Assembly (NCBI GenBank): GCA_964349875.1
Contig: CAYGIG010000001.1
Coordinates: 52 to 64,051, forward strand
Direction of reading: 5' to 3'
Source: an uncultured Gammaproteobacteria bacterium
GTDB taxonomy: Bacteria; Patescibacteriota; Microgenomatia; CAYQLK01
DNA length: 64,000 bases
The translations under genes were made by a program, and so were the position numbers. The notes beneath the pieces were generated by a model. That model saw nothing but the letters and a program-made list of their open reading frames with translations. It had not been told where the DNA came from and ran no database searches. Positions 39,962 through 54,872 of the stretch are shown here, in pieces (the stretch's first letter is position 1; each line of letters begins with the position of its first letter).

Positions 39962-40345
39962 ATGCCCAAATACCTCAAAATAATCTCAGCCTTCATTGCC
40001 ATAAACATCGGTTCTTCCACTGCGGTTTTTGCTGACGGAGAACCGCCGCAGATTGTGCAGCTTACAGAATTGATCAGCAAAATTATTGGATTTATCGCAC
40101 CAATTGCCGGTATTGGTTTCTTTCTAATACTTGTCTACGCAGGCTATTTGTACATCTTTTCTTTTGGTGATCCAGGCAAAGCCGGCAAGGCTCGAAGTGC
40201 CATGCTAACAGCCGTTATCGGTCTTGTCGTCTTGGTACTAATCTATTTAGTTTATGTCGCAATTGGGCTAATGACCGGCTGTAATGTACTTGAACTAAAC
40301 TTCAACAACCCTGACTCGGTTTGTCCAAGTAATACCGGGTCATAA
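39962..40345 (+). CDS. VirB2/TrbC-type T4SS pilin-like protein (paralog 6)
   Basis: Signal peptide, then IFSFGDPGKAGKARSAMLTAVIGLVVLVL. C-terminal Cys pair (GCN...VCPSN). Confidence 0.6.
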   Translation: MPKYLKIISAFIAINIGSSTAVFADGEPPQIVQLTELISKIIGFIAPIAGIGFFLILVYAGYLYIFSFGDPGKAGKARSAMLTAVIGLVVLVLIYLVYVAIGLMTGCNVLELNFNNPDSVCPSNTGS

Positions 40346-41593: not shown

Positions 41594-43279
41594 ATGCGTC
41601 TCAAACTAGTCCTGCCAATTATCGTAATAGCTAGCCTTCTCCTAACATTTTTCAGCTTCAAACCAGTATTTGCCGAGGACCCTTTTAAATGTGACGAGCA
41701 AGCAGCAGCCGCTGGCGGTGCAGCTTCAGGCACTTCAGCAATTTCCAACCCCCAATTGGGAGTCGGCGAAACAGTTCAACCCTACCAGCAATCAATTTGT
41801 CAGTACAAAAATGCCCTCGACGAGGACGATGTTAATCTGCAAAAATTCAACCTCGGCCTTATGGACAATCTTGCATTTGGCATTAATCGCCAAATTACCG
41901 GCCTCCCCGCAACAGACGCAGAATTAGCCTGTCTGGAAGCAGGTACATGCAAAACCAGTGCCGCAATTCCTTTTCTGATGAAAAGCATTTCTATGCTTTA
42001 CACTGAAAAACCGGCTTCAGGAGTGCAATATTTGGCCGACCTTAAATCAAAAATCACAGGCGACACACTCGCCGCCCAAACTGGCTACGACGCACTTAAA
42101 CCTACCCAAGCTCTTTGGACAACCTTCCGCAACCTCACCCTTCTTTTGTATGTCATTTTCTTTATCGTTATTGGTTTTATGATTATCTTCCGCCAAAGAT
42201 TAAGCTCTAGCTCTGTCGCTTCTGTTCAAGCGGTATTGCCAAAAATAATTGTCAGTCTAATTCTAGTAACTTTCTCCTATGCCATTGTTGGCTTAATGAT
42301 CGACCTGATGAACTTTTTCATCGCCATTATGATTAATATTCTTTCCACTCAAGACGTGGCCAGAGCAAACTCGAACGATATTTACTACAACAAAAGTGTC
42401 TTTAGTTTTATGTTTAATGACCTTTTTCTGAAAAATATCACAGGTATATTTTCTGTGCCGAACGATATTATCTCAGGGGCTCTTGATGAGGTCGACGTAA
42501 TGCCTGACTTAATTAATAATTTTGCCTCAGGATTACTCGCCGGCCTCGCAGTTGCTGTCATTGCAATAATGCTACTAGTCGCAACATTTAGAGTATTCAT
42601 GATGTTGCTAATGGCTTATGTTAAGGTCTTTTTCTACACCATCTTTGGGCCACTGATGATTGGTATTGGTGTTATTCCAGGTATGCCGGGATTTGGGCCA
42701 TGGATAAGAAACATCGCCGCACAACTCTCAACATTTGTCATTACTATTCTAATGATTATTTTTGCTGCGTACTTTATGGGAGTCAGTAAAGGCGATAACG
42801 GAATAACCTCAGGCGAAGCGACAATAACCTCAGGCGAGGGTTGGAATGCGCCATTATTGGGCGGCTTCACAAACCCTGAAGGTGGCGGTAACGCACTAAA
42901 GGGAATGATTGGTATAGGAATACTTTTAGGTATTCCGTCGGCAGCCAAAATCGCTCAAGACGCCTTTAAGGTTAAAGGTGGTGGAATTGGCGGCATGATC
43001 GGCGGAGCAGCCGGCGCTAGTGCTGGTGCAGGCATGGCAATGGCTGGAAGTCCGTTTAGAGGCGCTGCCGGCAGAGCAAAAACAAATGTCAATAATTTTG
43101 CCGGAGAAAGATTGAACAACACTTTTAATCCATTGAGTGCTGACCGAAGATATGACAGGCTCTCAAGACAAGCAGGTGCCTCCACACCAATAAACCCAGG
43201 TACTTCAGGTCCTGCAGGTCCAACATCGGTACCGGGAGCTAGGAATAGAGTCGCAAACCCCTTCCGCCGGAGAACATAA
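41594..43279 (+). CDS. VirB6/TrbL-like polytopic membrane protein with N-terminal Cys-rich exported domain and Gly-rich C-terminal tail
   Basis: Signal peptide. ~150-aa domain with 5 Cys. Then 5-6 TM helices (LLLYVIFFIVIGFMIIF, IIVSLILVTFSYAIVGLMIDLMNFFIAIMI, LLAGLAVAVIAIMLLVATF ...). GGIGGMIGGAAGASAGAGMAMAGS tail. Placed between the pilin array and VirB4, as VirB6 is in Gram-positive systems. Confidence 0.55.
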   Translation: MRLKLVLPIIVIASLLLTFFSFKPVFAEDPFKCDEQAAAAGGAASGTSAISNPQLGVGETVQPYQQSICQYKNALDEDDVNLQKFNLGLMDNLAFGINRQITGLPATDAELACLEAGTCKTSAAIPFLMKSISMLYTEKPASGVQYLADLKSKITGDTLAAQTGYDALKPTQALWTTFRNLTLLLYVIFFIVIGFMIIFRQRLSSSSVASVQAVLPKIIVSLILVTFSYAIVGLMIDLMNFFIAIMINILSTQDVARANSNDIYYNKSVFSFMFNDLFLKNITGIFSVPNDIISGALDEVDVMPDLINNFASGLLAGLAVAVIAIMLLVATFRVFMMLLMAYVKVFFYTIFGPLMIGIGVIPGMPGFGPWIRNIAAQLSTFVITILMIIFAAYFMGVSKGDNGITSGEATITSGEGWNAPLLGGFTNPEGGGNALKGMIGIGILLGIPSAAKIAQDAFKVKGGGIGGMIGGAAGASAGAGMAMAGSPFRGAAGRAKTNVNNFAGERLNNTFNPLSADRRYDRLSRQAGASTPINPGTSGPAGPTSVPGARNRVANPFRRRT

Positions 43280-43305: not shown

Positions 43306-46131
43306 CTACAAATCCTTCTTTATCTGATCTTTACTCTGATTAAACAAGGTTTTTATCCAAAATACTGGCACATTCAATAATAAATTCTTCGGAGAAAGCA
43401 CCTCCCTTGCAAAAGCCTTAGTAATCTCCGCCGGCCTACTAACAAAAGTACGCTTCACTTTACCGCCATAAAGTTCTTTAAGTAATTGGTCCATTTCACT
43501 CTTACCAAGATAAACCGGCACTTGCTTGAGCAAATAGTCCTCAACTCTTCTCGGCCCCCATCTGCCATACTGCGGCTTATTATCTCCTTTAACATTTATT
43601 ACTCCGTTTACACTCATCTTATGTACCATCAATGCCTGCAATACACGCCTATTAAATTCGCGCCGGTCATCAGGTGATTTTGCAAAATAGCTATCCATTA
43701 GTGCTTTGGCTCCCTCTTCTGTCGGGCTCATTTCAAACGCTTCTAACTTACCGTACATGTCGTTAGTTTCAGTTGCTGCCGCGTCTTTATAAACATCATC
43801 TTTAAGATTGGTCACAATATTTGTATTCCTTTTTATTTTCTCTCCGAAATCGTCAATATTTTTAAACTCTTCAAGACTGCTCGAACCAAACAAGGCCATT
43901 AACTTTTCGGATGGATCTGTATATTTGTAAAATCCGTCTCTTAAAAATATGTGTTCAAAAATCGCCTGGTTCTCAAAATTAACCTTATTTCCCCCAGCCT
44001 CGATCATCCACTGCGGAAAGCGATCCTTAATTAGCGCATTGTCCTTGTAATTACCCGCAAAAATGTAATTTCTGTCATTAAAATATTTACCAGCCTTTCC
44101 CTTTGTTCCTTCGTCTCCAGGTTTTGGCGCCACCTTGATTGGCTCGATGACAATTGGCGCAATTGTCGTTTCGTAAAAATCTCTAGCAACAGCCATTCTC
44201 TGCTCAAAGGCAATTTTATTTGCTGAATACTCATTCGAGCCTTTAATTTTATCCGTCAACGCCTCCTTTTTTGCAGAATCACTATCATCGATCTCAAAAC
44301 CGTTTATCTCCGCAAACTTTGCTCTATATACACCGTTTTCCAAAAATTTTGCGTTCAACTTACTCTTTACAAAAACCTCTTTCATTTGCTGTTTAAATTT
44401 AAAACCCACTGTCCAATTATCCTGATGAGCGTCCTCAAAACCACTTTGCTCATCTGAACTCAATGCTACATATTGTGCCTGCAAATCATCGTCAACAAAA
44501 ACCCTGCCCTCATTGCCTAAAACAGTTTCATTTTTTAACCTGCTTCTTACTTCTTCTTCCGATTTTAATTCTGGAGCATTATTAATAGCCTTAAATACCG
44601 CAGAGTCTGCTTGATATCTCGCCAAAACCATCTTTCTTACAGCTTCCCCTTCCGCACCACCCAATATATCAACCAAAGCTTCGTAATTAAGTGTGCTAGA
44701 TAACGCTTCAGAAACCTCCTTGGCACCCCTGCCTTTAGCGGCGACAGCGAAATTATGCATTCTCCTTAAAGCTTCATATTCTCGTTTAAATTGATCTATG
44801 TCTGGTGAGAACGTTTGTCTAGTATCTGGATCAAGCTCGTCAAATCGGCGGATTTTATCACTATTAGCCGGAATTTCGCTGGGCTTTTCCAAATCCTGCA
44901 ACGCTCGTAATTTAATAATCTCCAACGGATTAAATGCCTCAATTGCACTACTAACTTCCAATCTTGCTTTTTCCAAAACAATATCTAAAGCATCTGCTCT
45001 CAAATCAAGCTCCTGTCTTTCTTCAACCTTCTTAACTTCCTTCTCTCTTAATCCTTGAATTGCACCAGACAGATCGTTAAATCTATTTAAAAGTTCCTCT
45101 TTGTTTATTCTGATACTGTCCGTTGCACGAATAGTCTCAATAATTCTTTTCTCCTGGTCTTTAATCCTGGTATAAATCCTGTCTCTATCTGTTCTATAAG
45201 CATCTTTACTACTCTCAGTTTCAAGTGTTGTCGTAAGTGCTTCCGAAATTTCATCGAGTTCAGCCAATTCAGTAACTGAGGCGGCCCCACTACTCTTTCT
45301 CTCCTCAAGCTCTTTCTTTCTTCCCAACTTACTGACACTTTTTTCGGCCGTGGGTTTGGACTCCGATTCTGCTGTAGGAGGCTTTGCTCCAAAAGCAGCA
45401 AAGGCGCCTTCTCGGTCACGAGTATTTAGTAATTGTTCAAAAAAATTAGCCGTCACCTCCATATCTCCACCAAGCTCTTCAGCTTTGGCTCTAATAGCTT
45501 CACTTGTAATACCTTCCGCCTGAAATCTCGCAAACAACCTCGCCGCTCGCTCTTCCGGACTATCGGTACCGTCAGAACCACCAGCATCAGTACCACCTGA
45601 ATCGCCCGAGTCCGCCGAATCATCAAAATTGTCGAAGTCGCTTGCAAAATAAGCTTGACTTATATCGTTTATTGCCTCATCCCTACTTCTTAACAGATCA
45701 AACCTATAGCTACCCCCGTCGATAAAAGAGGCATATTTAACTCCGTCATTTCCGACTACTATTGACTGTATTCTTTTTGGTTTGGCCCATATAAAAACTC
45801 CGCTGGTTCCGTTCTTATCCACCGCAACAACCAAATCCCCCACTTTAAAAGGGGAAGGATCATCATCCTCATTTTCATTCTTGGAAGTTTTTTCATCATC
45901 GCCCGTATCTTTCAAAATACTCGGATCTTGTCGCTCTCCAGGATTACTTGCGTCACGTCCGTCAAGCTCCTTCTCAAAAAAGTTTGCCGCGGCCTCTATG
46001 TCTCCATGAAACTCATCAGCTTTTGCTCTAATTTCGTCCGAAGTTATACCTGCCGCGCGGATTCTCGCAAACAACTCATTTGCTCTCTTTTGTGGATCTT
46101 CTAAAATAGAATCTTCTCTCTGTTCTGCCAT
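43306..46131 (-). CDS. large acidic hypothetical protein (941 aa) with two ~40-aa UBA-like internal repeats, embedded antisense in the T4SS-like locus
   Basis: Repeat 1 ELFARIRAAGITSDEIRAKADEFHGDIEAAANFFEKEL. Repeat 2 ARLFARFQAEGITSEAIRAKAEELGGDMEVTANFFEQLL. Asp/Glu-rich linkers (DSADSGDSGGTDAGGSDGTD). No Walker, HUH or TM motifs seen. Confidence 0.5.
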   Translation of the reverse strand: MAEQREDSILEDPQKRANELFARIRAAGITSDEIRAKADEFHGDIEAAANFFEKELDGRDASNPGERQDPSILKDTGDDEKTSKNENEDDDPSPFKVGDLVVAVDKNGTSGVFIWAKPKRIQSIVVGNDGVKYASFIDGGSYRFDLLRSRDEAINDISQAYFASDFDNFDDSADSGDSGGTDAGGSDGTDSPEERAARLFARFQAEGITSEAIRAKAEELGGDMEVTANFFEQLLNTRDREGAFAAFGAKPPTAESESKPTAEKSVSKLGRKKELEERKSSGAASVTELAELDEISEALTTTLETESSKDAYRTDRDRIYTRIKDQEKRIIETIRATDSIRINKEELLNRFNDLSGAIQGLREKEVKKVEERQELDLRADALDIVLEKARLEVSSAIEAFNPLEIIKLRALQDLEKPSEIPANSDKIRRFDELDPDTRQTFSPDIDQFKREYEALRRMHNFAVAAKGRGAKEVSEALSSTLNYEALVDILGGAEGEAVRKMVLARYQADSAVFKAINNAPELKSEEEVRSRLKNETVLGNEGRVFVDDDLQAQYVALSSDEQSGFEDAHQDNWTVGFKFKQQMKEVFVKSKLNAKFLENGVYRAKFAEINGFEIDDSDSAKKEALTDKIKGSNEYSANKIAFEQRMAVARDFYETTIAPIVIEPIKVAPKPGDEGTKGKAGKYFNDRNYIFAGNYKDNALIKDRFPQWMIEAGGNKVNFENQAIFEHIFLRDGFYKYTDPSEKLMALFGSSSLEEFKNIDDFGEKIKRNTNIVTNLKDDVYKDAAATETNDMYGKLEAFEMSPTEEGAKALMDSYFAKSPDDRREFNRRVLQALMVHKMSVNGVINVKGDNKPQYGRWGPRRVEDYLLKQVPVYLGKSEMDQLLKELYGGKVKRTFVSRPAEITKAFAREVLSPKNLLLNVPVFWIKTLFNQSKDQIKKDL

Positions 46132-46384: not shown

Positions 46385-48409
46385 ATGGAAGAGCATGCTG
46401 TACCGCAGAACATAACTAATTTTGAGTTCAAACTTTTTGGCCCTTTTACCATCCATCAATTCATTTATGTTGCCATAGGCGGCATTATCGGAGCTGTTTT
46501 TTATTTTTCACCGCTTCCAAAAGGCATTGCTTATATTCTTGGTGGAATTGCTGTTTTTGGAGGTATCGGGTTTGCTGCCATCCCTTTGCAGGGCAGGTCT
46601 CTAGATAAATGGATTATCGCTTTCTTTCGCTCAATTACTCACCCAACCCAGCGAATTTGGATTAAAGATAATCACATTCCATATTTTCTCGAAACCAGCT
46701 TTCTGCAAACCACCCCTCAACCTACAACTACCCAGCCTCTTGCCTCGCCGCGCCTTAATCATGCTGATTTACAAACACTTTTAGCCAAGCAACGCCGCAC
46801 CACAAACGATAATCCCTTCGATCAAAAAGAAAGTCAGTTTTTGAGTCAAATTTTAAGTCTTAACTCGACCGTTAAAGCTACAGCCGCACCACCACCCCAA
46901 AATCAACAAGCCAATCAATCCCCATTCTCTCCATTCCAAAAACCTTATCGAACTTCGCGTCCAATTATTCAAGCCACTCCTAAGCCGGCCCAGCTTTTAG
47001 TGCGGGAACAGGAGATAAAAGCACAAGAACTAGCTTTGGCTGAAAAACAGAAGGAATTAGAAGCAACCAAGCTCAAACTCGAAGCTGAAAAGCAAAAAAA
47101 ACTTGAACTTCTAACTCAAAAACCTACCATTCAGGCGCACGCAATCGGCAACTTAGAGATTCAAAAACGTCCTGAACCATCTCCAGCTTCTACTCCGATC
47201 ATAAAATTCTCCGACTATCCGGAAAGCCTTAATCCTGATCGCGAGATCAAAGTTCTGCCTTACAACCCAATCACTGCCCCTGCTGGATCCACAGCTCCTC
47301 AAAATCCTCACACGGACCACACCGCAACCGACCAGGCCTCTAAACAAAGGCTGGCCGAGCTTGATAAAGTTCTTCTGGCCCAGCAAAAGATCGAGGCTGA
47401 GATAAAAGCCAAAGAAGAAGAAATTAAGCATCAGCAAACAAAAATTCAGCAGGAAGAAGAAAAGTTCACTCAAGCATGGAAAGATTTCGAAAAAACCAAA
47501 AGCCTGATCGAAGGAGGGGTTGATACCTCCACACCTGACGCGCTGTCTAGACACATGCTTACAAATATTGGCAAAAAAACCACTGTTGCACCAATGCCGT
47601 CATCAAACTTCTCATCTCTTTACAGCACCCAGCCAATCGCCGCTCAAATAGCTTCAGACATAAATTTCGGCGGTAATGTAATTGCCATCCCCGGCATTAA
47701 AGTACAATTTCTTCAAGGCATTGGAGACACTAGAATCAGAAAACTTCGTTCCAGACCGCCTGATTTTTCAAAAGCAACCCTGCCAATTCTCGGAGAAAGA
47801 CAGTTTGATATCAGCAAAGAACTGAAAAAACGCTACGAACAACCCTCAGAATCCACAGCCGTCAAAACCGCACCAGCAACGGGAATTTCTATTGAACAAA
47901 TAAAAAAAGTCGGCGACTTTCAACCAGTCAGGGCAGGAGAAATAAAAGAGCACGAGAGTAAAAACTTTACCCCGCCTCCAAGCCCTAATATTCACCCCAA
48001 ACCAGAAAAACAATCTAAAACACAGGAGAATGTTGAACACACCCCCGCCCAGCGACCTAAACACGGCCAAATAGTCCAACCCTTTAACTACCAAAAAGAG
48101 ACTTCAAATACCGCCCCAAAAGCCGAAGTCAAAATCAACCTTTCCGAACATTCCAACACTCCCAACGGTATTGTTTACAATAGCCAGGGCGGGCTGATCC
48201 AGGGAGCACTAATCTCTGTATTTGATCGTGACGGGGTTCCTGTTAGGGCTTTCAAAACTAACGGTCTTGGTCAGTTCGTCTCCGTCACACCACTGCCTGA
48301 TGGACACTATACGATTCAGACAGAATTTAACGGTTTAAACTTTGATACAATTGCCTTCGATGCAGAAGGAAAGCTTCTTGATCCATTTGCTATAACTGCT
48401 AAAAACTAA
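46385..48409 (+). CDS. PrgI/VirB3-like membrane hairpin fused to coiled-coil, Pro/Gln-rich linker and C-terminal carboxypeptidase-regulatory-like beta-sandwich domain
   Basis: N-terminus FEFKLFGPFTIHQFIYVAIGGIIGAVFYFSPLPKGIAYILGGIAVFGGIGFAAIPLQGRSLDKWIIAFF is a two-TM hairpin like PrgI/TcpE/VirB3 analogues upstream of VirB4. Then a heptad region (KELEATKLKLEAEKQKKLE). C-terminus GIVYNSQGGLIQGALISVFDRDGVPVRAFKTNGLGQFVSVTPLPDGHYTIQTEFNG is CarboxypepD_reg-like. Confidence 0.55.
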   Translation: MEEHAVPQNITNFEFKLFGPFTIHQFIYVAIGGIIGAVFYFSPLPKGIAYILGGIAVFGGIGFAAIPLQGRSLDKWIIAFFRSITHPTQRIWIKDNHIPYFLETSFLQTTPQPTTTQPLASPRLNHADLQTLLAKQRRTTNDNPFDQKESQFLSQILSLNSTVKATAAPPPQNQQANQSPFSPFQKPYRTSRPIIQATPKPAQLLVREQEIKAQELALAEKQKELEATKLKLEAEKQKKLELLTQKPTIQAHAIGNLEIQKRPEPSPASTPIIKFSDYPESLNPDREIKVLPYNPITAPAGSTAPQNPHTDHTATDQASKQRLAELDKVLLAQQKIEAEIKAKEEEIKHQQTKIQQEEEKFTQAWKDFEKTKSLIEGGVDTSTPDALSRHMLTNIGKKTTVAPMPSSNFSSLYSTQPIAAQIASDINFGGNVIAIPGIKVQFLQGIGDTRIRKLRSRPPDFSKATLPILGERQFDISKELKKRYEQPSESTAVKTAPATGISIEQIKKVGDFQPVRAGEIKEHESKNFTPPPSPNIHPKPEKQSKTQENVEHTPAQRPKHGQIVQPFNYQKETSNTAPKAEVKINLSEHSNTPNGIVYNSQGGLIQGALISVFDRDGVPVRAFKTNGLGQFVSVTPLPDGHYTIQTEFNGLNFDTIAFDAEGKLLDPFAITAKN

Positions 48410-48411
48410 AG

Positions 48412-49443
48412 ATGAAATCTGCCCCGATCAAATCATCAACTCAAGACCATCTAGATATCGCAGACATTCGCGATGATGTTGTTATACTTAAAGATAATTC
48501 CGCCGCAATCGTTATTCAAACAGCGGCCATAAATTTTGAACTGCTCTCCGAGTCTGAACAGGATTCAATTATTTATTCATACGCCGGACTATTAAACTCA
48601 CTTAACTTCACCACACAAATCGTTGTACGCAGTAAAAAAATCGATCTTAGTAATTATTTACAGCTGATCTCAGACGCAGAATCCCATCAGGCTAACCCTG
48701 ATATCAAGCGCCAGATCTATCAGTACCGGCAGTTTATTCAGACGATTGTTCAGCAAAATAACGTCTTAGAGAAAAAATTCTACGTGGTTGTTCCTTTTAA
48801 TCCACTCGAGTTAGGCGTCAAGGGCGCAGCTTTAGGCAAAGTTCAAAAAGACACAACACACCTTCAGGGTTTTATTGATTTGGTCAAAACCAGTCTTTAT
48901 CCAAAACGAGACCATTTGATCAAACAGTTTGCTCGTCTAGGAGTTAAATCCAAACAATTAACCACTCAGGAGTTAATAGAGCTGTATTTTGATATTTACA
49001 ATCCAAGCGAGGTCGGATTGCAAAAAATCACCGAAGCTGCAGGATCATACACCTCCCCAATGGTCTCACCGGCCGTAGCTGCTCCAAATCTCGCAGATCC
49101 AAGCACAAACGACTTAGCTCCGATCGTACCGACTACATCAAACCTTGCCCAATCGGGTCCAAACCTTGAATTACAACCTGCCCCTTTTGCACCTGCAGCA
49201 CCGCAAAACAACCCCACAATCTCAGCTCCGCCACCAAGTATTCAGCCGGCTACTCCCGTTGTCACCACTGAAACTCCGATCCAAAATACCAACATTCCGC
49301 CAATTCCAGATCAAACTCCGGTAAACTCATTTTCTCCCGCTGCACAAAACTCTCAAGCCCCAGAACAGCCCGAGGTAACTCCCAGCAGCAACACTCTCGA
49401 TCCTGACATTCTAAAGGCTCTCGATGCACTAAAATCGCCTTAA
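48412..49443 (+). CDS. VirB4 N-terminal-domain-like protein lacking the ATPase domain, with Pro-rich C-terminal tail
   Basis: DIADIRDDVVILKDNSAAIVIQTAAINFELLSESEQDSIIYSYAGLLNSLNFTTQIVVRS follows the N-terminal pattern of VirB4/TrbE family proteins. No Walker motifs. C-terminal ~120 aa are Pro/Ala/Thr-rich. Confidence 0.45.
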   Translation: MKSAPIKSSTQDHLDIADIRDDVVILKDNSAAIVIQTAAINFELLSESEQDSIIYSYAGLLNSLNFTTQIVVRSKKIDLSNYLQLISDAESHQANPDIKRQIYQYRQFIQTIVQQNNVLEKKFYVVVPFNPLELGVKGAALGKVQKDTTHLQGFIDLVKTSLYPKRDHLIKQFARLGVKSKQLTTQELIELYFDIYNPSEVGLQKITEAAGSYTSPMVSPAVAAPNLADPSTNDLAPIVPTTSNLAQSGPNLELQPAPFAPAAPQNNPTISAPPPSIQPATPVVTTETPIQNTNIPPIPDQTPVNSFSPAAQNSQAPEQPEVTPSSNTLDPDILKALDALKSP

Positions 49444-49465: not shown

Positions 49466-51334
49466 ATGAGTATATTCGGCAAGAAAAACAACCAAGACTC
49501 AGGCCAGACAGCACCACAGTTGGCATCTGCTCAGGCAAAAGCCGTTGCACAAGGTACGGTTTCAGTACGCGACATTATCGCCCCGCCTGCAATTGAGGTT
49601 GACTTTGACTCAATAAAAATCGGAGAAACGTACTTTAAAACACTCTTTGTTATTGGCTACCCTCGATATGTGGGTGCCAACTGGCTATCTCCGCTTATTA
49701 ACTTCAACCACACACTGGAAATATCTATGTTTCACTATCCTGTCGAAGCCCAGGCTGTTTTAGATGACATTAAGCGAAAGATCGGCGAAATGGAAGCCAC
49801 GATCTCTACCGACATCCAAAGAGGAAAAGTCGTTGACCCAAGTGTTGAGGTCGCACTCGACGACGCACGTGAATTTCAGCAGAATCTTGTCAAAGGAGCC
49901 GAAAAATTCTTCCAGTTTGGTCTTTATGTCACAGTTCCCGCCGACACCAAAGAGGAGCTTGTAAATATCACCAAACAAGTCGAGAGCCTGCTTGGCTCTA
50001 TTATGGTCATCTCCAAACACGCAACACTACAGCAAGAAGACGGATTCCGTACCACACTGCCTTACGGTCACGACAAAATGCTTGTGACCAGAAACATGGA
50101 CACAACCTCGCTGGCCACAACTTTTCCGTTTACTTCCAGCTCGCTTACCAGCAATGAAGGAATTATGTATGGTATCAACGAGCACAACGGCTCGCTTATT
50201 ATCTTTGACCGTTTTAGTCTGGAAAATGCCAATACGGTAATTTTTGCAAAATCCGGTGGAGGAAAGTCGTATTTAACCAAACTTGAGGCTCTCCGCTCTC
50301 TAATGTTCGGAACAGAAATCATCATTATTGATCCTGAGGAAGAATATAAAAATCTCTGTACAGCAATAGGCGGCGAATATATTAGTTTTGACTTCAACTC
50401 CGACACCAAAATTAACCCATTTGATCTCTCCGGAGTTTACGAAGAAGGCGAAAACGAGCTGGGCCTCAAAATCCTTTCACTCCACGGGTTGTTCAGAGTC
50501 ATCATGGGACAGCTTTCTGCCACTGAAGATGCTATTCTCGACCGAGCCTTGGTACTCGCTTACAAGAACAAAGGCATAACCGCTGATCCTCAAACACAAA
50601 CCCTTCAACCGCCATTGATGGAAGATTTGTACAAAGCCCTAATCGGCATGGAGGAACCACAAGCACAAACTCTGGCCGAAAGGATTGAAAAATTTGTCAA
50701 AGGCTCATTGGTTGGAATTTTTGATCAATATTCCAATCTGGATATCCGAAACACATTCACTGTTTTTAGTATTAAAAATCTCGAAGCAGAACTTCGTCCT
50801 ATCGCAATGTACATCATCCTCGATTTTATTTGGACCAGAGTTAAAAGGGATCTTAAAAAGAGAATACTAATAGTCGATGAGGCTTGGTACATGATGCAAT
50901 ATCCGGACTCGGCCACTTTTATGTATTCAATTGCCAAGCGCGCCCGAAAATATTATCTCGGCCTGACCACTATCACACAGGATGTTGAAGATTTTCTCGG
51001 TACTGAGTACGGCAAAGCCATCGTTACAAACTCCAGTTTGCAGATTTTACTCAAACAATCTCCCGCAGCAATCGACAAACTCGCCGAAGTCTTTTATCTC
51101 TCAGAAGGAGAAAAACATCTGCTTTTGGCCGCAGATGTTGGAGAAGGGTTGTTTTTTGCAGGCAGCTCCCATGTCGCTATGCGTGTAATTGGCTCTCCAG
51201 AGGAACACCAACTTGTTACCAGCAACCCCAAAGAAGTACTTGAAATGCAAAACCAGGCTGAAGCCGAACAGGCAAACATTGATAGAGACAGCTCTCAAGC
51301 ACAAGCCTCTGATCAAACTCAGGAAATCATCTAA
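49466..51334 (+). CDS. virB4: VirB4/TraC/CagE-family T4SS ATPase (Gram-positive-type, PrgJ/TcpF/ConE-like)
   Basis: N-terminal KTLFVIGYPRYVGANWLSPLINF. Walker A FAKSGGGKSY. Walker B ILIVDEAWYMM. LGLTTITQDVEDF C-terminal motif. 622 aa. Confidence 0.85.
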   Translation: MSIFGKKNNQDSGQTAPQLASAQAKAVAQGTVSVRDIIAPPAIEVDFDSIKIGETYFKTLFVIGYPRYVGANWLSPLINFNHTLEISMFHYPVEAQAVLDDIKRKIGEMEATISTDIQRGKVVDPSVEVALDDAREFQQNLVKGAEKFFQFGLYVTVPADTKEELVNITKQVESLLGSIMVISKHATLQQEDGFRTTLPYGHDKMLVTRNMDTTSLATTFPFTSSSLTSNEGIMYGINEHNGSLIIFDRFSLENANTVIFAKSGGGKSYLTKLEALRSLMFGTEIIIIDPEEEYKNLCTAIGGEYISFDFNSDTKINPFDLSGVYEEGENELGLKILSLHGLFRVIMGQLSATEDAILDRALVLAYKNKGITADPQTQTLQPPLMEDLYKALIGMEEPQAQTLAERIEKFVKGSLVGIFDQYSNLDIRNTFTVFSIKNLEAELRPIAMYIILDFIWTRVKRDLKKRILIVDEAWYMMQYPDSATFMYSIAKRARKYYLGLTTITQDVEDFLGTEYGKAIVTNSSLQILLKQSPAAIDKLAEVFYLSEGEKHLLLAADVGEGLFFAGSSHVAMRVIGSPEEHQLVTSNPKEVLEMQNQAEAEQANIDRDSSQAQASDQTQEII

Positions 51335-51389: not shown

Positions 51390-54300
51390 ATGCCTCAACA
51401 GACAGCCGAACAAACCAAACCCAAAAACGCCCTTGATCAACTTCTTCAATTCCGGCTGGCCGATTGGGCTTTGGAATTTTTTGAAACATCAAGCTCAGAA
51501 CAAAACCCGCCGCGCTTCCCAACCCCTGAAGAATTTAATCAAAAATTTCACGATTTATTTCCGGATGCCGACTATCAGCAAACACTTATTGTTATCCAAA
51601 ATATCGCTGATAAATATCACGTTAACGATATTGGTCAGAACATTATTCTGTTAAGGCAAATTTTTGCAGGTCTAATAAAAAACGACCTTGAAGAATTAGA
51701 AATCTCAACCGAAACTTCAACTCCTATCATTCAAAAAACAAAGGGAGAACAAAAAACCCTTCCAAAAAGCGGGCTGGCAGTGCTTGAAGAGGTCGATTCA
51801 ATCATTGAAAAACTTCGACAGACTCGCACTGAAGAGACTTTGCCTCCGGCAGTGGAGCTGCCTGAAACATTAAAGATCCCCACTCCGCAAGCCCAGCCGG
51901 CTTCTTTCCAAACTGCTGATTTGCCCGCGTCACCACGGCCCATCCAGTCAGACTCAAACATCAACAAACCACAACTTACGCTCCCAAACGACTTTAAAAC
52001 ACAAACCACACCGGCTTCAATTGCCGAGTCCGATATCGCACCCACGACTAAAAGACTCGAAGGCACGGTCAACCTTACTCATACCGAACTTCAAACTGCA
52101 GTTAAAAACCTTATTCTCTCTCCGGTCGTCGCCGCAAATATCTTTTCCCGTCAAATTGATAAACCAAACCAAGAAAGAATAGCTGCCAACATTGCCAAGG
52201 CCGTGGCAACACGAATTGTCTACACCACCCACACCGCAGACTTTCAAGAACTTTCACCAGTTTTAGCTTCAGAAATCTACGAATCTGCCACACAAGACCC
52301 CTTAACAGCTCCGAGTTCCGGAAAACTACTAAAATCTGAAGATTTCCTGCAAGCTGTCGATACTATTTCCGAAAACAACTTTCCGGCAATTTCTCAAGCC
52401 AACGTTGCTTCCCAAATTCTCCTAATCAGCACACTTACAGACTCTAAAAATGCACCAGCTGTACACAGCGAAATCATTAATAAAGCAGTCACAACCAGCT
52501 TAAAAATTAATCCCGCCAAAAATACCGCCAAAAACAAGCTCACTATAACCACAGCAGTTCAGCAAGTGTATCTTCCGGCAATCGCAGTAAGGGTTTTATC
52601 AAAAACCAAAGAAGATCTTGATAAAAATATCCCTCTCGAACCAAAACGCTTCCTCCAAAATCTCGACACGGCTCAAGAACAAAGTTTTCAGTCTTTCTTA
52701 AAACATTTAGACAATAAGCTCGAAGACAAAACCATCATTGCCGAAGCAATACCCAGGTTTGTAATCGATACGGTCTCACAAGAAATCCTTAAACCTGTAA
52801 ATGTTTACGCCCAAGGACAGAGATCAATTAATACGCCAGAAGCCGAGGCTGCCGAAAACCACGCCTTTGCATCACTCATGTCCAACCCCAAAAGACAACA
52901 GGAAAGCTATCAGGATTTTTTGGTTGAGTCTCTGCACCCAAACCCGCAGAGATATTCTGTGCTTCACGAAAGCGTTCGAGAGTTCGGCAACAGGGAATCA
53001 AAAAGTCTTGGTCAGACAATATTGCTCGCGAATTACACAAGCGAAATGGATCTATATGAACAAATTCCTCAATTTAAAAACCCTGCTCGCAGGTCGATTT
53101 GGAGAATGGGCGGGTTTTCGCGCAGTTATTATTCTCAAAGCCCCGCGGGCCAAGCAGTTACAAGATCGGTCAATTTTGTGCCTAAAAAATCGTATTTCAA
53201 GTTTTCTCAAAAATTCTCATCCGGCAGAGCAAAGGGTGCTCTAAAAGCATTTGCTAAAAAAGGGGCTGGTAAGGTCGCCGCAAAAGTGGGTATTTCAGTC
53301 GCAGTCGGAGCAGCAACCGGCGGCACGTCATTGCTCTTACAGGCAGCAATTATGCTCGCTCTAAAATTCAAAAAACAAATTGCCAAAATTCTTGGAGTCC
53401 TAATTGCTTTACAAATATTGTTTTTGCTTTGGCTTTTAACGCAAGCCGCTGCTTTTGTTATGGGGGCACTCGTTGGAGCCACAATAGGCTTTGCTCTTGG
53501 CGGACCAATTGGAGCAATGGTAGGCGGATTTTTGGGCGGCACAGCTTCAGTTTGGTTGTACAGCCATTTCCCTCCTTATGCAGCGTTTGTTGACAATGTC
53601 TTACTTAATCTACCTAAACTTTGGAGTGCTGTTACAGCGCCAATAGGATGGGCAGCCTCAGCATTTGGAGCAATAAGCGCGACAGCCTCATTTGTTGGTG
53701 GCGCAGCGGGAGCAACTGCTTCTTTTATTGGTGGCGGGGCCTCGTTTGTTGGTGGATTATTAACAGGAGGAGGTGGCGGCAGCGCAATTGTCTCAACACT
53801 CGCAAGCCCAGGCGTACTCATTCCCACAGCCACCGTCGGAGGGCTCGCCGCTTTTTCTGTCCTTAGTTACAACCTGTTAGCTTCAGCTTTATACACTAAC
53901 CCCAGTCTTCCGGAGCAAATTGTCCTTCCGGGCGATGCCACTGAAGGAGAAACAACAAACACATATATTTCGATTCAAAAATTGGCCTCTGTAAATGCAA
54001 AATCTCTCGGACCAGCCAAAACTATCAACCTTGAAAACTTCGACCTGCCCCAAACCGTGACTTACTCAGTCAGCATCACTGCAGGCGCGCAACCCGTTTA
54101 CAACATAACTTGTACAGATGCTATTACTCACACCACTAAATCAGGCTCGGTCAGAAATCTTACAAGCCCGGCAATTAACTGCCCAACCTCTTTAGCTCCG
54201 AATCAATCAGAGCTGATAACATACAACTTAAATCTAGCCTCTGATCCCATCTTTTATGACTCCAGTATAAATAATAAGTTTTCGATTAATTTCAAATCTT

Positions 54301-54872
54301 TTGACCCTGATGTCACTCCTATTCCTGATGTCAGCGGTGGTTTTATCAACTCCGTTTCAAGCCAAGCTAATGACTTAGCGGCAGTATTTATTGGCACTCC
54401 AGCCAGTGAGTGTCCGTCCGGATGGCCGGTAGCAGGCACTGGGCGCGTAACCCAGGGTCCTGGTGGTAATATTTCCCACCAATCACTTGAGGCTGTTGAT
54501 ATTGCCACTTTTTACACCGACAGCCTTTTGGCCAGCTTTAACGGTGTAGTTCAATACAAATACACCGACCCCGACGGAAATCATCCGATCACCGGAAGGA
54601 CTGGATACACTGTGATCTTAAACGGAACCTGCAATGGTGTACCATTTCAGGTAATTTACGGCCACATGGATTCTTTTGGAGCCGGTATCGAAGTCGGGTC
54701 TGTTGTGACAAAAGGGCAGGTAATTGGCTACGAAGGATATACTGGATATATCCTTCCTCCAGACATTAGAGGAACACATCTGCATTACGAATTCCGCGGT
54801 TTGAGAATGGAACCGCCTTTTATACCTGAAGATGTGCGTGATTGCTCAGGAAATTGTGCAACCGTAAACTAA
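51390..54872 (+). CDS. giant (1160 aa) membrane protein with central Gly/Ala-rich TM cluster and C-terminal M23 (LytM) peptidoglycan endopeptidase domain; candidate T4SS cell-wall hydrolase (VirB1/PrgK/CwlT analogue)
   Basis: C-terminus GNISHQSLEAVDIAT ... GHMDSFGAGIEVGSVVTKGQVIGYEGYTGYILPPDIRGTHLHYEF carries the M23 HxxxD and HxH motifs. Residues ~620-800 hold 5-6 TM helices with GGAAGATASFIGGGASFVGGLLTGGGGG. Confidence 0.6.
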   Translation: MPQQTAEQTKPKNALDQLLQFRLADWALEFFETSSSEQNPPRFPTPEEFNQKFHDLFPDADYQQTLIVIQNIADKYHVNDIGQNIILLRQIFAGLIKNDLEELEISTETSTPIIQKTKGEQKTLPKSGLAVLEEVDSIIEKLRQTRTEETLPPAVELPETLKIPTPQAQPASFQTADLPASPRPIQSDSNINKPQLTLPNDFKTQTTPASIAESDIAPTTKRLEGTVNLTHTELQTAVKNLILSPVVAANIFSRQIDKPNQERIAANIAKAVATRIVYTTHTADFQELSPVLASEIYESATQDPLTAPSSGKLLKSEDFLQAVDTISENNFPAISQANVASQILLISTLTDSKNAPAVHSEIINKAVTTSLKINPAKNTAKNKLTITTAVQQVYLPAIAVRVLSKTKEDLDKNIPLEPKRFLQNLDTAQEQSFQSFLKHLDNKLEDKTIIAEAIPRFVIDTVSQEILKPVNVYAQGQRSINTPEAEAAENHAFASLMSNPKRQQESYQDFLVESLHPNPQRYSVLHESVREFGNRESKSLGQTILLANYTSEMDLYEQIPQFKNPARRSIWRMGGFSRSYYSQSPAGQAVTRSVNFVPKKSYFKFSQKFSSGRAKGALKAFAKKGAGKVAAKVGISVAVGAATGGTSLLLQAAIMLALKFKKQIAKILGVLIALQILFLLWLLTQAAAFVMGALVGATIGFALGGPIGAMVGGFLGGTASVWLYSHFPPYAAFVDNVLLNLPKLWSAVTAPIGWAASAFGAISATASFVGGAAGATASFIGGGASFVGGLLTGGGGGSAIVSTLASPGVLIPTATVGGLAAFSVLSYNLLASALYTNPSLPEQIVLPGDATEGETTNTYISIQKLASVNAKSLGPAKTINLENFDLPQTVTYSVSITAGAQPVYNITCTDAITHTTKSGSVRNLTSPAINCPTSLAPNQSELITYNLNLASDPIFYDSSINNKFSINFKSFDPDVTPIPDVSGGFINSVSSQANDLAAVFIGTPASECPSGWPVAGTGRVTQGPGGNISHQSLEAVDIATFYTDSLLASFNGVVQYKYTDPDGNHPITGRTGYTVILNGTCNGVPFQVIYGHMDSFGAGIEVGSVVTKGQVIGYEGYTGYILPPDIRGTHLHYEFRGLRMEPPFIPEDVRDCSGNCATVN

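What the first reader, a model, noticed from the sequence alone, without database searches (positions are those of the whole stretch)
46385..48409. VirB3/PrgI-like membrane hairpin fused to coiled-coil, Pro/Gln-rich spacer and a carboxypeptidase-regulatory-like beta-sandwich
Typical PrgI/VirB3 analogues are ~100-130 aa. Here the two-TM hairpin (FIYVAIGGIIGAVFYF...ILGGIAVFGGIGFAAIPL) is followed by ~540 extra residues. These are a Lys/Glu heptad stretch, a long Pro/Gln/Thr-rich low-complexity spacer, and a C-terminal domain (GIVYNSQGGLIQGALISVFDRDG...HYTIQTEFNG) resembling CarboxypepD_reg/Cna-B-like sandwich domains.

This suggests the inner-membrane VirB3 analogue is physically extended through the wall to a surface-exposed binding domain.
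Basis: partly seen in the sequence, partly recalled or inferred. Interest (0 to 1): 0.55.

Follow-up and report, generated by a model that had tools for sequence, protein, structure and literature searches.

The report
Extended VirB3/PrgI subunit with tethered beta-sandwich
This gene encodes the small membrane anchor (VirB3/PrgI) of a type IV secretion machine in an ultra-small Patescibacteria bacterium, enlarged about six-fold by a long flexible tail ending in a compact beta-sandwich domain; the design is real and common in this group, but the tail most likely hangs into the cytoplasm rather than reaching the cell surface.

Summary

It opens an operon with a TrsD/TraC-like protein, VirB4 and an M23 hydrolase. 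That operon lies in a Patescibacteria-type chromosomal T4SS locus beside dnaN/dnaA, and the order PrgI-fusion, TraC-like, VirB4 is kept wherever the contig extends that far.

The architecture is widespread: 687 50%-identity clusters carry the C-domain at E <= 1e-30. Sampled clusters have a median length of 357 aa, and this protein is the longest of them.

The surface-exposure reading is not supported. No family member has a third TM segment. Lys/Arg counts fit the canonical VirB3 in/in topology. In three related loci the tail is a separate gene with no signal peptide or TM. A predicted cytoplasmic neighbour carries the same kind of Pro/Gln-rich tail.

Best reading: a cytoplasmic tethered adaptor on VirB3. 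Its function is inferred, not shown. It is a new variant of a known kind.

The parts
46385..48409 (+). Whole ORF, 674 aa: extended PrgI/VirB3-family T4SS subunit
   Evidence: identical on 4 contigs
46400..46657 (+). PrgI (PF12666) domain, residues 6-91: conserved N-tail, two TM helices, amphipathic C-terminal helix
   Evidence: 18 of 18 relatives match PrgI; AF2 pLDDT 90-97
46451..46507 (+). TM helix 1 (residues 23-41)
   Evidence: AF2 helix; hydropathy
46520..46579 (+). TM helix 2 (residues 46-65), followed by a Lys/Arg-rich flank (R71, K75, R82, R90, K94)
46985..47119 (+). Glu/Lys-rich long helix A (residues 201-245); coiled coil or single alpha-helix
   Evidence: AF2 pLDDT about 82-86; 75% identity among orthologues, heptad occupancy 54%
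47321..47512 (+). Glu/Lys-rich long helix B (residues 313-376)
47513..47842 (+). Conserved linker module (residues about 377-486; core ...INFGGNVIAIPG..QFLQGIGDTRIRKL...LPILGERQFDIS.ELKKR), no confident AF2 fold
   Evidence: 77% pairwise identity; an HMM of the core finds it in distant family members P0358 cluster, P0322, P0330, P0355, P0279, P0318; no Pfam or PDB match
48137..48406 (+). C-terminal transthyretin-like beta-sandwich (residues 585-674), family signature PN...G.V...PVRA.KTN.LGQF..TPL..G.Y
48412..49443 (+). TrsD/TraC-like protein (VirB4 N-terminal-domain homologue) with Pro/Gln/Thr/Ser-rich tail; start is 2 nt after the PrgI-fusion stop
   Evidence: NCBIfam NF041427 TrsD and VirB4 N-terminal matches; PF26593 TraC-like; tails in relatives
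49466..51334 (+). VirB4-family ATPase, 622 aa
   Evidence: NF045971, 404 bits; P-loop_TraG
51390..54872 (+). 1160-aa membrane protein with C-terminal M23 peptidase (VirB1-like wall hydrolase candidate)
   Evidence: conserved downstream of VirB4 in close relatives
41594..43279 (+). Polytopic 561-aa membrane protein, VirB6-like candidate (weak)
   Evidence: NF045848, E 0.028; homologues upstream of the PrgI fusion in L014, L019, L020, L026
38241..40345 (+). Tandem array of small VirB2-like T4SS pilin genes
   Evidence: PF18895 T4SS_pilin hits on four genes and on 39962-40345

Best explanation
The gene encodes the VirB3/PrgI subunit of the chromosomal, Patescibacteria-type type IV secretion system. 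Its N-terminal 100 residues form the canonical two-helix membrane hairpin plus amphipathic helix. By homology these anchor the VirB4 ATPase to the membrane at the channel entrance. Here VirB4 is split into a TrsD/TraC-like N-domain protein and a 622-aa ATPase.

A lineage-typical C-terminal module is fused to this anchor. It consists of flexible Pro/Gln/Thr/Ser-rich linkers, two rigid Glu/Lys-rich helices, a conserved roughly 65-110-residue motif block, and a terminal transthyretin-like beta-sandwich.

The hairpin puts both ends in the cytoplasm and there is no further membrane segment. The module is therefore most likely a cytoplasmic, tethered binding module at the base of the machine, six copies per machine if the R388 stoichiometry applies. 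The inferred function is to recruit or hold a partner at the channel entrance: a substrate, or the TrsD/VirB4 ATPase assembly. This would be a receptor or regulatory role in a system that has no coupling protein or relaxase nearby.

Shown here: identity, architecture, conservation, synteny, absence of a third TM, and the existence of split-gene versions. Inferred: cytoplasmic location and adaptor function.
For: Identity and fold:
- PrgI HMM above threshold.
- AF2 hairpin, helices and sandwich.
- Fold matches.

Context:
- The order PrgI-fusion, TraC-like, VirB4 is kept in every related locus whose contig extends that far, often next to dnaN/dnaA. This matches the published Patescibacteria T4SS layout (PMC12102498).
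- The family is large and under constraint: 2708 hits, 687 at E <= 1e-30, with the domain at the extreme C-terminus. Of 122 sampled, 89 hit PrgI and 115 hit CarboxypepD_reg. Sandwich identity is 82% against 29-57% for linkers.

Cytoplasmic side:
- Canonical VirB3 topology and VirB4 binding.
- Positive-inside counts of 95 K+R after TM2 against 17 in the loop.
- No hydrophobic segment downstream in 121 of 122 representatives.
- Three loci where the module is a separate gene product without signal peptide or TM: L030 with a TAAATG junction, conserved in at least 3 assemblies; L028 with an ATGA overlap; L032 with a spacer and RBS-like AGGAAG.
- The TM-less TraC-like partner has the same type of low-complexity tail.

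Other points:
- The essential Saccharibacteria PrgI (SEML1_0010) is also extended, at 300 aa with a helical C-terminal region.
- No coupling protein or relaxase was found among the ten ORFs of at least 327 aa scanned in window 1-36000.
Against: - No topology predictor or experiment was available. The in/in topology rests on homology, charge counts and gene-split logic.
- Transthyretin-like/Cna-B/CarboxypepD_reg sandwiches are mostly extracytoplasmic. The profile also hits giant multi-repeat proteins that look like surface proteins.
- One positional analogue (P0244, L031) carries the sandwich behind a 140-residue N-terminal region and a single TM. If that protein is N-in, the sandwich is outside.
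- No binding partner has been identified.
- AF2 gives no fold for the conserved block.
- The coiled-coil signal is weak.
Confidence: 0.55

Rival explanations
1. First reader's model. The tail is translocated and spans the cell wall, so the beta-sandwich acts as a surface-exposed adhesin or wall-binding domain physically coupled to the inner-membrane VirB3 anchor. This would be a VirB10-like envelope-spanning link in a monoderm.
For: - Structural neighbours are dominated by pilins, MSCRAMM B-domains, S-layer and carboxypeptidase-D domains.
- The linkers are Pro/Thr/Gln-rich.
- Some family members carry additional SdrD_B, Big_6 or bMG3-type domains.
- P0244 (L031) has a single TM before the sandwich.
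- The review notes that monoderm T4SSs lack a known VirB10-like relay.
Against: - It requires an N-out/C-out hairpin. That contradicts VirB3 topology and the natural VirB3-VirB4 fusions.
- There are five K/R in the 32 residues after TM2, against one in the loop.
- There is no third TM.
- The split-gene versions lack any signal peptide.
- The predicted cytoplasmic TraC-like protein has the same linker composition.
Confidence: 0.2
2. The tail, or the separate sandwich protein in split lineages, is made in the cytoplasm. It is then threaded or exported by the T4SS itself. It would act as a substrate, plug or pilus-associated factor rather than a static cytoplasmic adaptor.
For: - The split proteins have no Sec signal yet carry a fold typical of extracellular proteins.
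- The long disordered linker would suit threading.
- VirB3 sits at the pilin recruitment site next to VirB6.
- The substrates of the Patescibacteria T4SS are unknown.
Against: No precedent is known for a VirB3 tail entering the channel. No recognisable T4SS secretion signal was tested. A compact, well-folded sandwich (pLDDT 97) is a poor threading substrate. The idea is entirely speculative.
Confidence: 0.1
3. The extension is a largely neutral or structural spacer with no specific binding role, for example a lineage-specific disordered decoration, and only the PrgI hairpin matters.
For: - Linker length varies widely: proteins range from 236 to 674 aa.
- Large parts have pLDDT below 50.
- The Saccharibacteria homologue has a different C-terminal region.
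Against: - The sandwich is as conserved as the PrgI domain, 82% against 87% identity.
- It carries a family-wide signature and is kept in hundreds of clusters.
- It is retained as its own gene when the ORF splits.
- These are reduced genomes, where neutral DNA is unlikely to persist.
Confidence: 0.1

Closest known systems
PrgI (pCF10) / VirB3 (A. tumefaciens) / TrwM (R388)
   Same: PF12666 match; N-tail, two TM helices and a C-terminal amphipathic helix; encoded upstream of virB4 in a T4SS cluster.
   Different: Canonical proteins are about 100-130 aa with only short cytoplasmic ends. This one has about 575 extra residues with helices, a conserved motif block and a beta-sandwich. A TrsD-like gene separates it from virB4.
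SEML1_0010, the 'PrgI family protein' of Ca. Southlakia epibionticum (Saccharibacteria), essential for epibiotic growth (Wang et al. 2023, PMC10633639)
   Same: Patescibacteria chromosomal T4SS with the same gene order (PrgI, a roughly 290-aa protein, VirB4). It is also extended beyond the PrgI domain, at 300 aa.
   Different: Its extension is annotated as a small helical (TFIIS-domain-2/KIX-like) region, not a transthyretin-like sandwich, and it is much shorter.
Natural VirB3-VirB4 fusion proteins (e.g. Campylobacter plasmids, CagE)
   Same: The C-terminus of the VirB3 hairpin is covalently continued by a cytoplasmic module.
   Different: In those fusions the fused module is the ATPase itself. 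Here VirB4 is separate, and the fused module is a non-enzymatic linker plus sandwich.
CarboxypepD_reg (PF13620) / transthyretin-like / Cna-B beta-sandwich domains
   Different: This protein scores below the Pfam gathering threshold. There is no conserved Lys/Asn-Asp isopeptide pair. The context, the C-terminus of a VirB3 homologue, is undescribed in the papers searched.
Extended VirB6 proteins of Rickettsiales
   Same: A normally compact T4SS inner-membrane subunit enlarged by large hydrophilic domains of unknown role.
   Different: It is a different subunit, and those extensions are not homologous to this one.

Membership tests
PrgI family (Pfam PF12666; VirB3 analogue of monoderm T4SS) | Profile HMM match above the gathering score | tested here: met
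   33.9 bits against 27 for the whole protein and 38.9 bits for residues 1-105; 18 of 18 relatives match.
PrgI family (Pfam PF12666; VirB3 analogue of monoderm T4SS) | Two transmembrane helices followed by a C-terminal alpha-helix | tested here: met
   AF2 helices 23-41, 46-65 and 73-85 with pLDDT 77-97; hydropathy.
PrgI family (Pfam PF12666; VirB3 analogue of monoderm T4SS) | Small size (10-15 kDa, about 100-130 aa) with only short cytoplasmic extensions | tested here: not met
   674 aa here; family median 357 aa. Size criterion from PMC12857230.
PrgI family (Pfam PF12666; VirB3 analogue of monoderm T4SS) | Gene next to virB4 in a T4SS cluster | tested here: met
   PrgI-fusion, TraC-like (VirB4 N-domain homologue), VirB4 in the window and in every related locus whose contig extends that far.
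PrgI family (Pfam PF12666; VirB3 analogue of monoderm T4SS) | Physical 1:1 binding to VirB4 and N-in/C-in topology | not testable with these tools
   Only indirect support: charge distribution and the absence of a third TM.
CarboxypepD_reg (PF13620) / transthyretin-like fold | Profile HMM above the gathering score | tested here: not met
   23.5 bits against 32.3 for this protein. However, 115 of 122 family representatives match at E <= 1e-3, best 9e-18.
CarboxypepD_reg (PF13620) / transthyretin-like fold | Seven-stranded prealbumin-like beta-sandwich | tested here: met
Cna-B domain (isopeptide-stabilised pilin/MSCRAMM B repeat) | Conserved Lys (first strand) and Asn/Asp (last strand) isopeptide pair with a catalytic acid | tested here: not met
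   The invariant columns of the family alignment are N, G, R, A, G, Q, L, Y, F, P. No invariant Lys or Asn/Asp pair sits in the terminal strands.
Coiled coil | Heptad a/d hydrophobic periodicity over long helices | tested here: inconclusive
   Long helices are predicted, but the best-register a/d occupancy is only 54-56%, against a 33-40% background. A single alpha-helix of the E/K type is equally possible.
Patescibacteria-type chromosomal T4SS (MPF-FATA-related; Quinonero-Coronel et al. 2025) | VirB4 + TrsD + PrgI/VirB3 + VirB2-like pilin array, near dnaA/dnaN, without an associated relaxase or coupling protein | tested here: met
   No T4CP or relaxase among the ten ORFs of at least 327 aa scanned in window 1-36000. 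Description of the system.

The most novel reading that the evidence does not exclude
Patescibacteria equip the normally minimal VirB3 subunit with a dedicated, conserved partner-binding module: a motif block plus a transthyretin-like sandwich, either fused or translationally coupled. This module would serve as the substrate or ATPase receptor of an essential T4SS that lacks an associated relaxase and coupling protein. Alternatively, it is delivered through the machine to the cell surface, giving a monoderm T4SS an envelope-spanning, VirB10-like link.
Probability: 0.2. Interest if true: 0.7.

Novelty: new variant of a known kind. Interest (0 to 1): 0.45.

Why it matters
The T4SS of Patescibacteria is the only T4SS known to be essential for its bearer. 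Its substrates and mode of action are unknown, and it has no associated relaxase or coupling protein (PMC10633639, PMC12102498, PMC12857230).

A conserved, widespread extra module on the subunit that sits at the channel entrance is an obvious candidate for the missing specificity or regulatory element. It gives a concrete handle for pull-downs, AF-multimer screens and truncations. The papers found that describe this system list PrgI only as present or absent and do not mention the extension.

The work also corrects a tempting misreading. A beta-sandwich plus a Pro-rich linker does not by itself mean surface exposure.

Tried and rejected
- **Word-indexed homologue searches with 105-aa profiles.** They returned only fragments under 190 aa. 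This is a length bias of candidate selection, not biology. The exhaustive representative search gave the true length distribution.
- **PDB sequence search with the PrgI profile.** No hit, so there is no direct alignment to TrwM/VirB3 structures.
- **The conserved block 377-486.** No Pfam, PHROG or PDB relative, and AF2 gives pLDDT below 50.
- **AFDB50 fold search.** The library was unavailable.
- **tblastn against plasmids.** No match, so this is not a known plasmid-borne PrgI variant.
- **Correlation of PrgI-fusion length with TraC-like length.** None found: Spearman 0.19, p 0.41.
- **Apparent stand-alone sandwich proteins P0318 and P0340.** They turned out to be a mis-called start and a contig-edge fragment, and were not counted as gene splits.
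- **Promoter and terminator scans.** Promoter-like sites are at chance level (17 against 15.8 +/- 3.9), so no use was made of them.
- **Assembly or fusion artefact.** Considered and rejected because of the conservation across hundreds of clusters.
Full report
**1. The observation**

The window has an ATG-initiated ORF at 46385-48409 (+) of 674 aa.

- Pfam places a PrgI domain (PF12666) at residues 6-91, at 33.9 bits against a gathering score of 27.
- It places a sub-threshold CarboxypepD_reg match (PF13620) at residues 595-651, at 23.5 bits against 32.3.

An AlphaFold2 model built on a 106-row alignment gives these elements:

- A confident helical hairpin at 23-41 and 46-65 (pLDDT 90-97).
- The VirB3-type helix at 73-85.
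- Two long helices at 201-245 and 313-376 (pLDDT 82-86).
- A seven-strand sandwich at 585-674 (pLDDT about 97).
- The remainder is below pLDDT 50.

The sandwich modelled alone has pLDDT 91. It matches transthyretin-like, CarboxypepD_reg and Cna-B type domains:

- Foldseek E about 3e-5 to a CnaB2 domain and to the transthyretin-like domains of carboxypeptidases D and N.
- Weak profile-to-PDB sequence matches to the SdrD B-domain and carboxypeptidase M.

- There are two Glu/Lys-rich helices, not one. Their heptad signal is only moderate, at 54-56% a/d occupancy.
- The 'spacer' contains a genuinely conserved block at residues about 377-486.
- VirB4 is one gene further downstream than implied.

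**2. Context**

The gene opens a tightly packed, co-directional set:

- PrgI-fusion, stop at 48409.
- A 343-aa protein starting at 48412. It matches TrsD/TraD (NF041427), the N-terminal roughly 140 residues of VirB4 family models and Pfam TraC-like PF26593.
- A 622-aa VirB4 ATPase (NF045971, 404 bits).
- A 1160-aa membrane protein with a C-terminal M23 peptidase.
- A 351-aa bitopic protein.
- dnaN and dnaA on the opposite strand.

Upstream lie a tandem array of T4SS_pilin genes (PF18895), a secreted 394-aa protein, a polytopic 561-aa VirB6-like candidate (weak) and a divergently transcribed 941-aa gene. The ten ORFs of at least 327 aa scanned in 1-36000 are housekeeping genes or have no Pfam match; they include sigma-70, primase, an ABC ATPase and a P-type ATPase. 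None is a coupling protein or relaxase.

This is the layout published for the Patescibacteria T4SS. That system comprises VirB4, TrsD, PrgI/VirB3, VirB6 and VirB2-like arrays, often lies beside dnaA/dnaN, and usually has no relaxase (PMC12102498). Related contigs come from Microgenomates and Woesebacteria-type MAGs.

**3. Relatives**

- Nine orthologues of 665-680 aa share 60-70% identity over the full length.
- A genome scan returned 23 loci. Complete ORFs there carry the same N-terminal PrgI domain and the same C-terminal domain, but are mostly 339-393 aa, with a few of 565-615 aa.
- The order PrgI-fusion, TraC-like, VirB4 is kept wherever the contig extends far enough, often followed by dnaN/dnaA.

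An exhaustive HMM search of 1.84 billion representatives with a C-domain profile found 2708 proteins at E <= 1e-3 and 687 at E <= 1e-30. The top hits are overwhelmingly 270-500 aa with the domain at the extreme C-terminus.

Of 122 such proteins, 115 match CarboxypepD_reg and 89 match PrgI at E <= 1e-3. Most of the rest are N-terminally truncated calls or fragments. The median length is 357 aa, and the window protein is the longest sampled.

The architecture is thus real, ancient and common. The window carries an expanded version.

**4. What is conserved**

Family-wide, only the PrgI domain and the sandwich align. The sandwich signature is PN...G.V...PVRA.KTN.LGQF...TPL..G.Y...F...P.

Mean pairwise identity among the nine long orthologues is:

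| Region | Identity |
|---|---|
| PrgI domain | 0.87 |
| Sandwich | 0.82 |
| Block 377-485 | 0.77 |
| Helix A | 0.75 |
| Helix B | 0.67 |
| Linkers | 0.29-0.57 |

An HMM of the block core (...F.G/N.V..I......G....R.L......LP..GER.F[DE]...) also detects it in distant long-linker members: the P0358 cluster, P0322, P0330, P0355, P0279 and P0318. It is therefore a second conserved module, not low-complexity filler. It has no Pfam, PHROG or PDB relative and no confident AF2 fold. It may fold only on binding a partner.

**5. Which side of the membrane?**

Five lines of evidence point to the cytoplasm.

- **(a) VirB3 topology.** VirB3 proteins have two TM helices, a C-terminal helix and short cytoplasmic ends. 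They bind the N-terminal domain of cytoplasmic VirB4 1:1, and in some systems VirB3 is fused to VirB4 (PMC12857230, PMC12624023, PMC12102498). The homologous helix is present here at 73-85.
- **(b) Charge distribution.** Summed over 18 relatives, Lys+Arg counts are 24 in the 25-residue N-tail, 17 in the 8-residue loop and 95 in the 32 residues after TM2. This is the positive-inside pattern for N-in/C-in.
- **(c) No third TM.** Hydrophobic 19-mers are confined to residues about 17-75 in all 18 relatives. Only 1 of 122 representatives has one beyond residue 95, and it lies inside the sandwich.
- **(d) Split genes.** In three related loci the module is a separate gene. In L030 a 227-aa PrgI is followed by TAAATG and a 588-aa protein; that cluster is seen in at least 3 assemblies. 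In L028 a 186-aa PrgI overlaps by ATGA with a 705-aa protein. In L032 a 328-aa PrgI is followed by a 40-nt spacer with AGGAAG and a 362-aa protein. All three second proteins end in the family sandwich, and none has a signal peptide or TM. A product made without an export signal is cytoplasmic unless it uses a non-Sec route.
- **(e) Linker composition.** The TraC-like neighbour has no TM and is a homologue of a cytoplasmic domain. In nearly all relatives it carries a tail of 31-52% Pro/Gln/Thr/Ser. That composition therefore says nothing about wall spanning in these organisms.

Three points argue the other way.

- Most structural neighbours of the sandwich are extracytoplasmic.
- The profile also hits giant proteins with 18-34 repeats that look like surface proteins.
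- One positional analogue, P0244 in L031, sits directly upstream of TraC-like. It has a 140-residue acidic N-terminal region, a single TM and then the sandwich. Its orientation is ambiguous from flanking charges: +3/-3 before the TM and +5/-3 after.

I put the cytoplasmic location at roughly 70-75%.

**6. Mechanism**

*Shown here:* this is the VirB3/PrgI subunit of a Patescibacteria T4SS, and it carries a conserved tethered module.

*From established knowledge of the family:* six VirB3 copies ring the channel entrance on top of the VirB4 hexamer, next to VirB6.

*My inference:* each copy hangs a flexible tether into the cytoplasm. The tether runs up to about 480 residues, has two stiff helices, and ends in a small binding domain. 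The conserved block may be a second docking site. The likeliest role is capture or retention of a partner at the machine's base. That partner could be a substrate, which would give a receptor function in a system without an associated coupling protein. It could instead be the TrsD/VirB4 assembly, which would give a regulatory or scaffolding function.

The essential Saccharibacteria PrgI (SEML1_0010) is also extended, at 300 aa with a helical C-terminal region. Extension of VirB3 therefore appears to be general in the phylum, with lineage-specific terminal domains.

**7. Comparison and novelty**

Membership of the PrgI family is met on HMM score, hairpin and synteny. It fails only the small-size criterion.

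The terminal domain has the transthyretin-like/CarboxypepD_reg fold. This copy is below the Pfam threshold and lacks a Cna-B isopeptide pair.

The three papers read that describe the Patescibacteria T4SS treat PrgI as present or absent and do not mention a C-terminal domain. A full-text search for PrgI or VirB3 together with carboxypeptidase-regulatory or transthyretin-like terms returned nothing relevant. Public databases already record the two Pfam domains on these proteins, so the proteins themselves are not unknown.

I class it as a new variant of a known kind. Interest is moderate. It is not a new system, but it is a concrete and widespread unexplained module on a key subunit of an essential, mechanistically opaque machine.

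Noticed in passing
window 43306-46131 (minus strand); L003 345-3149: The 941-aa protein encoded divergently just upstream of the PrgI fusion is hypervariable. In contig L003 it is only 56% identical while PrgI, TraC-like, VirB4, M23, orf351 and dnaN are 100% identical. In species-level relatives it is 34-38% identical, against 61-91% for its neighbours. It has no TM or Pfam match and has an internally repeated N-terminal motif (residues about 15-55 and about 195-235). It could be an effector or another fast-evolving partner.
   Followed up: partly
L030 1874-4324; L028 5001-7675; L032 2974-5089: In some relatives the PrgI-fusion gene is split into a PrgI gene (186-328 aa) and a separate 362-705-aa gene ending in the same beta-sandwich. 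The junctions are stop/start (TAAATG, ATGA) or a short spacer with an RBS-like site.
   Followed up: yes
L031 1469-3067 (P0244): A 532-aa protein sits directly upstream of TraC-like. It carries the family beta-sandwich but has no PrgI hairpin, only a 140-aa acidic N-terminal region and a single TM. Its topology is unresolved. It is a possible counter-example to the cytoplasmic model.
   Followed up: partly
window 48412-49443: VirB4 is effectively split. A 343-aa TrsD/TraC-like protein homologous to the VirB4 N-terminal domain precedes the 622-aa ATPase. It carries a roughly 130-residue Pro/Gln/Thr/Ser-rich tail ending in a conserved DPDILKALDALKSP motif in the close clade.
   Followed up: partly
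L030 1332-1814; L029 4725-4967 and 5842-6204: Genes with 23S_rRNA_IVP/bAvd domains lie immediately next to the PrgI gene in two unrelated loci. These resemble the accessory variability determinant of diversity-generating retroelements.
   Followed up: no
L005-L010, L014, L015, L020-L023, L025, L026 (record titles): Many MAG records carrying this typical Patescibacteria T4SS locus are titled 'uncultured Gammaproteobacteria' or 'uncultured Pseudomonadales'. These are probably placeholder or wrong taxonomic labels.
   Followed up: no
window 51390-54872: The 1160-aa protein has a roughly 600-residue hydrophilic N-terminal region, a Gly/Ala-rich polytopic membrane region and a C-terminal M23 (LytM) peptidase. 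It is probably the VirB1-like wall hydrolase of the system, in an unusually large form.
   Followed up: no
one search hits P0219, P0220, P0236, P0269, P0342: Giant proteins of 3100-4500 aa contain 18-34 tandem copies of a domain matching the PrgI-associated sandwich profile. They are presumably surface repeat proteins and may be the evolutionary source of the domain.
   Followed up: no
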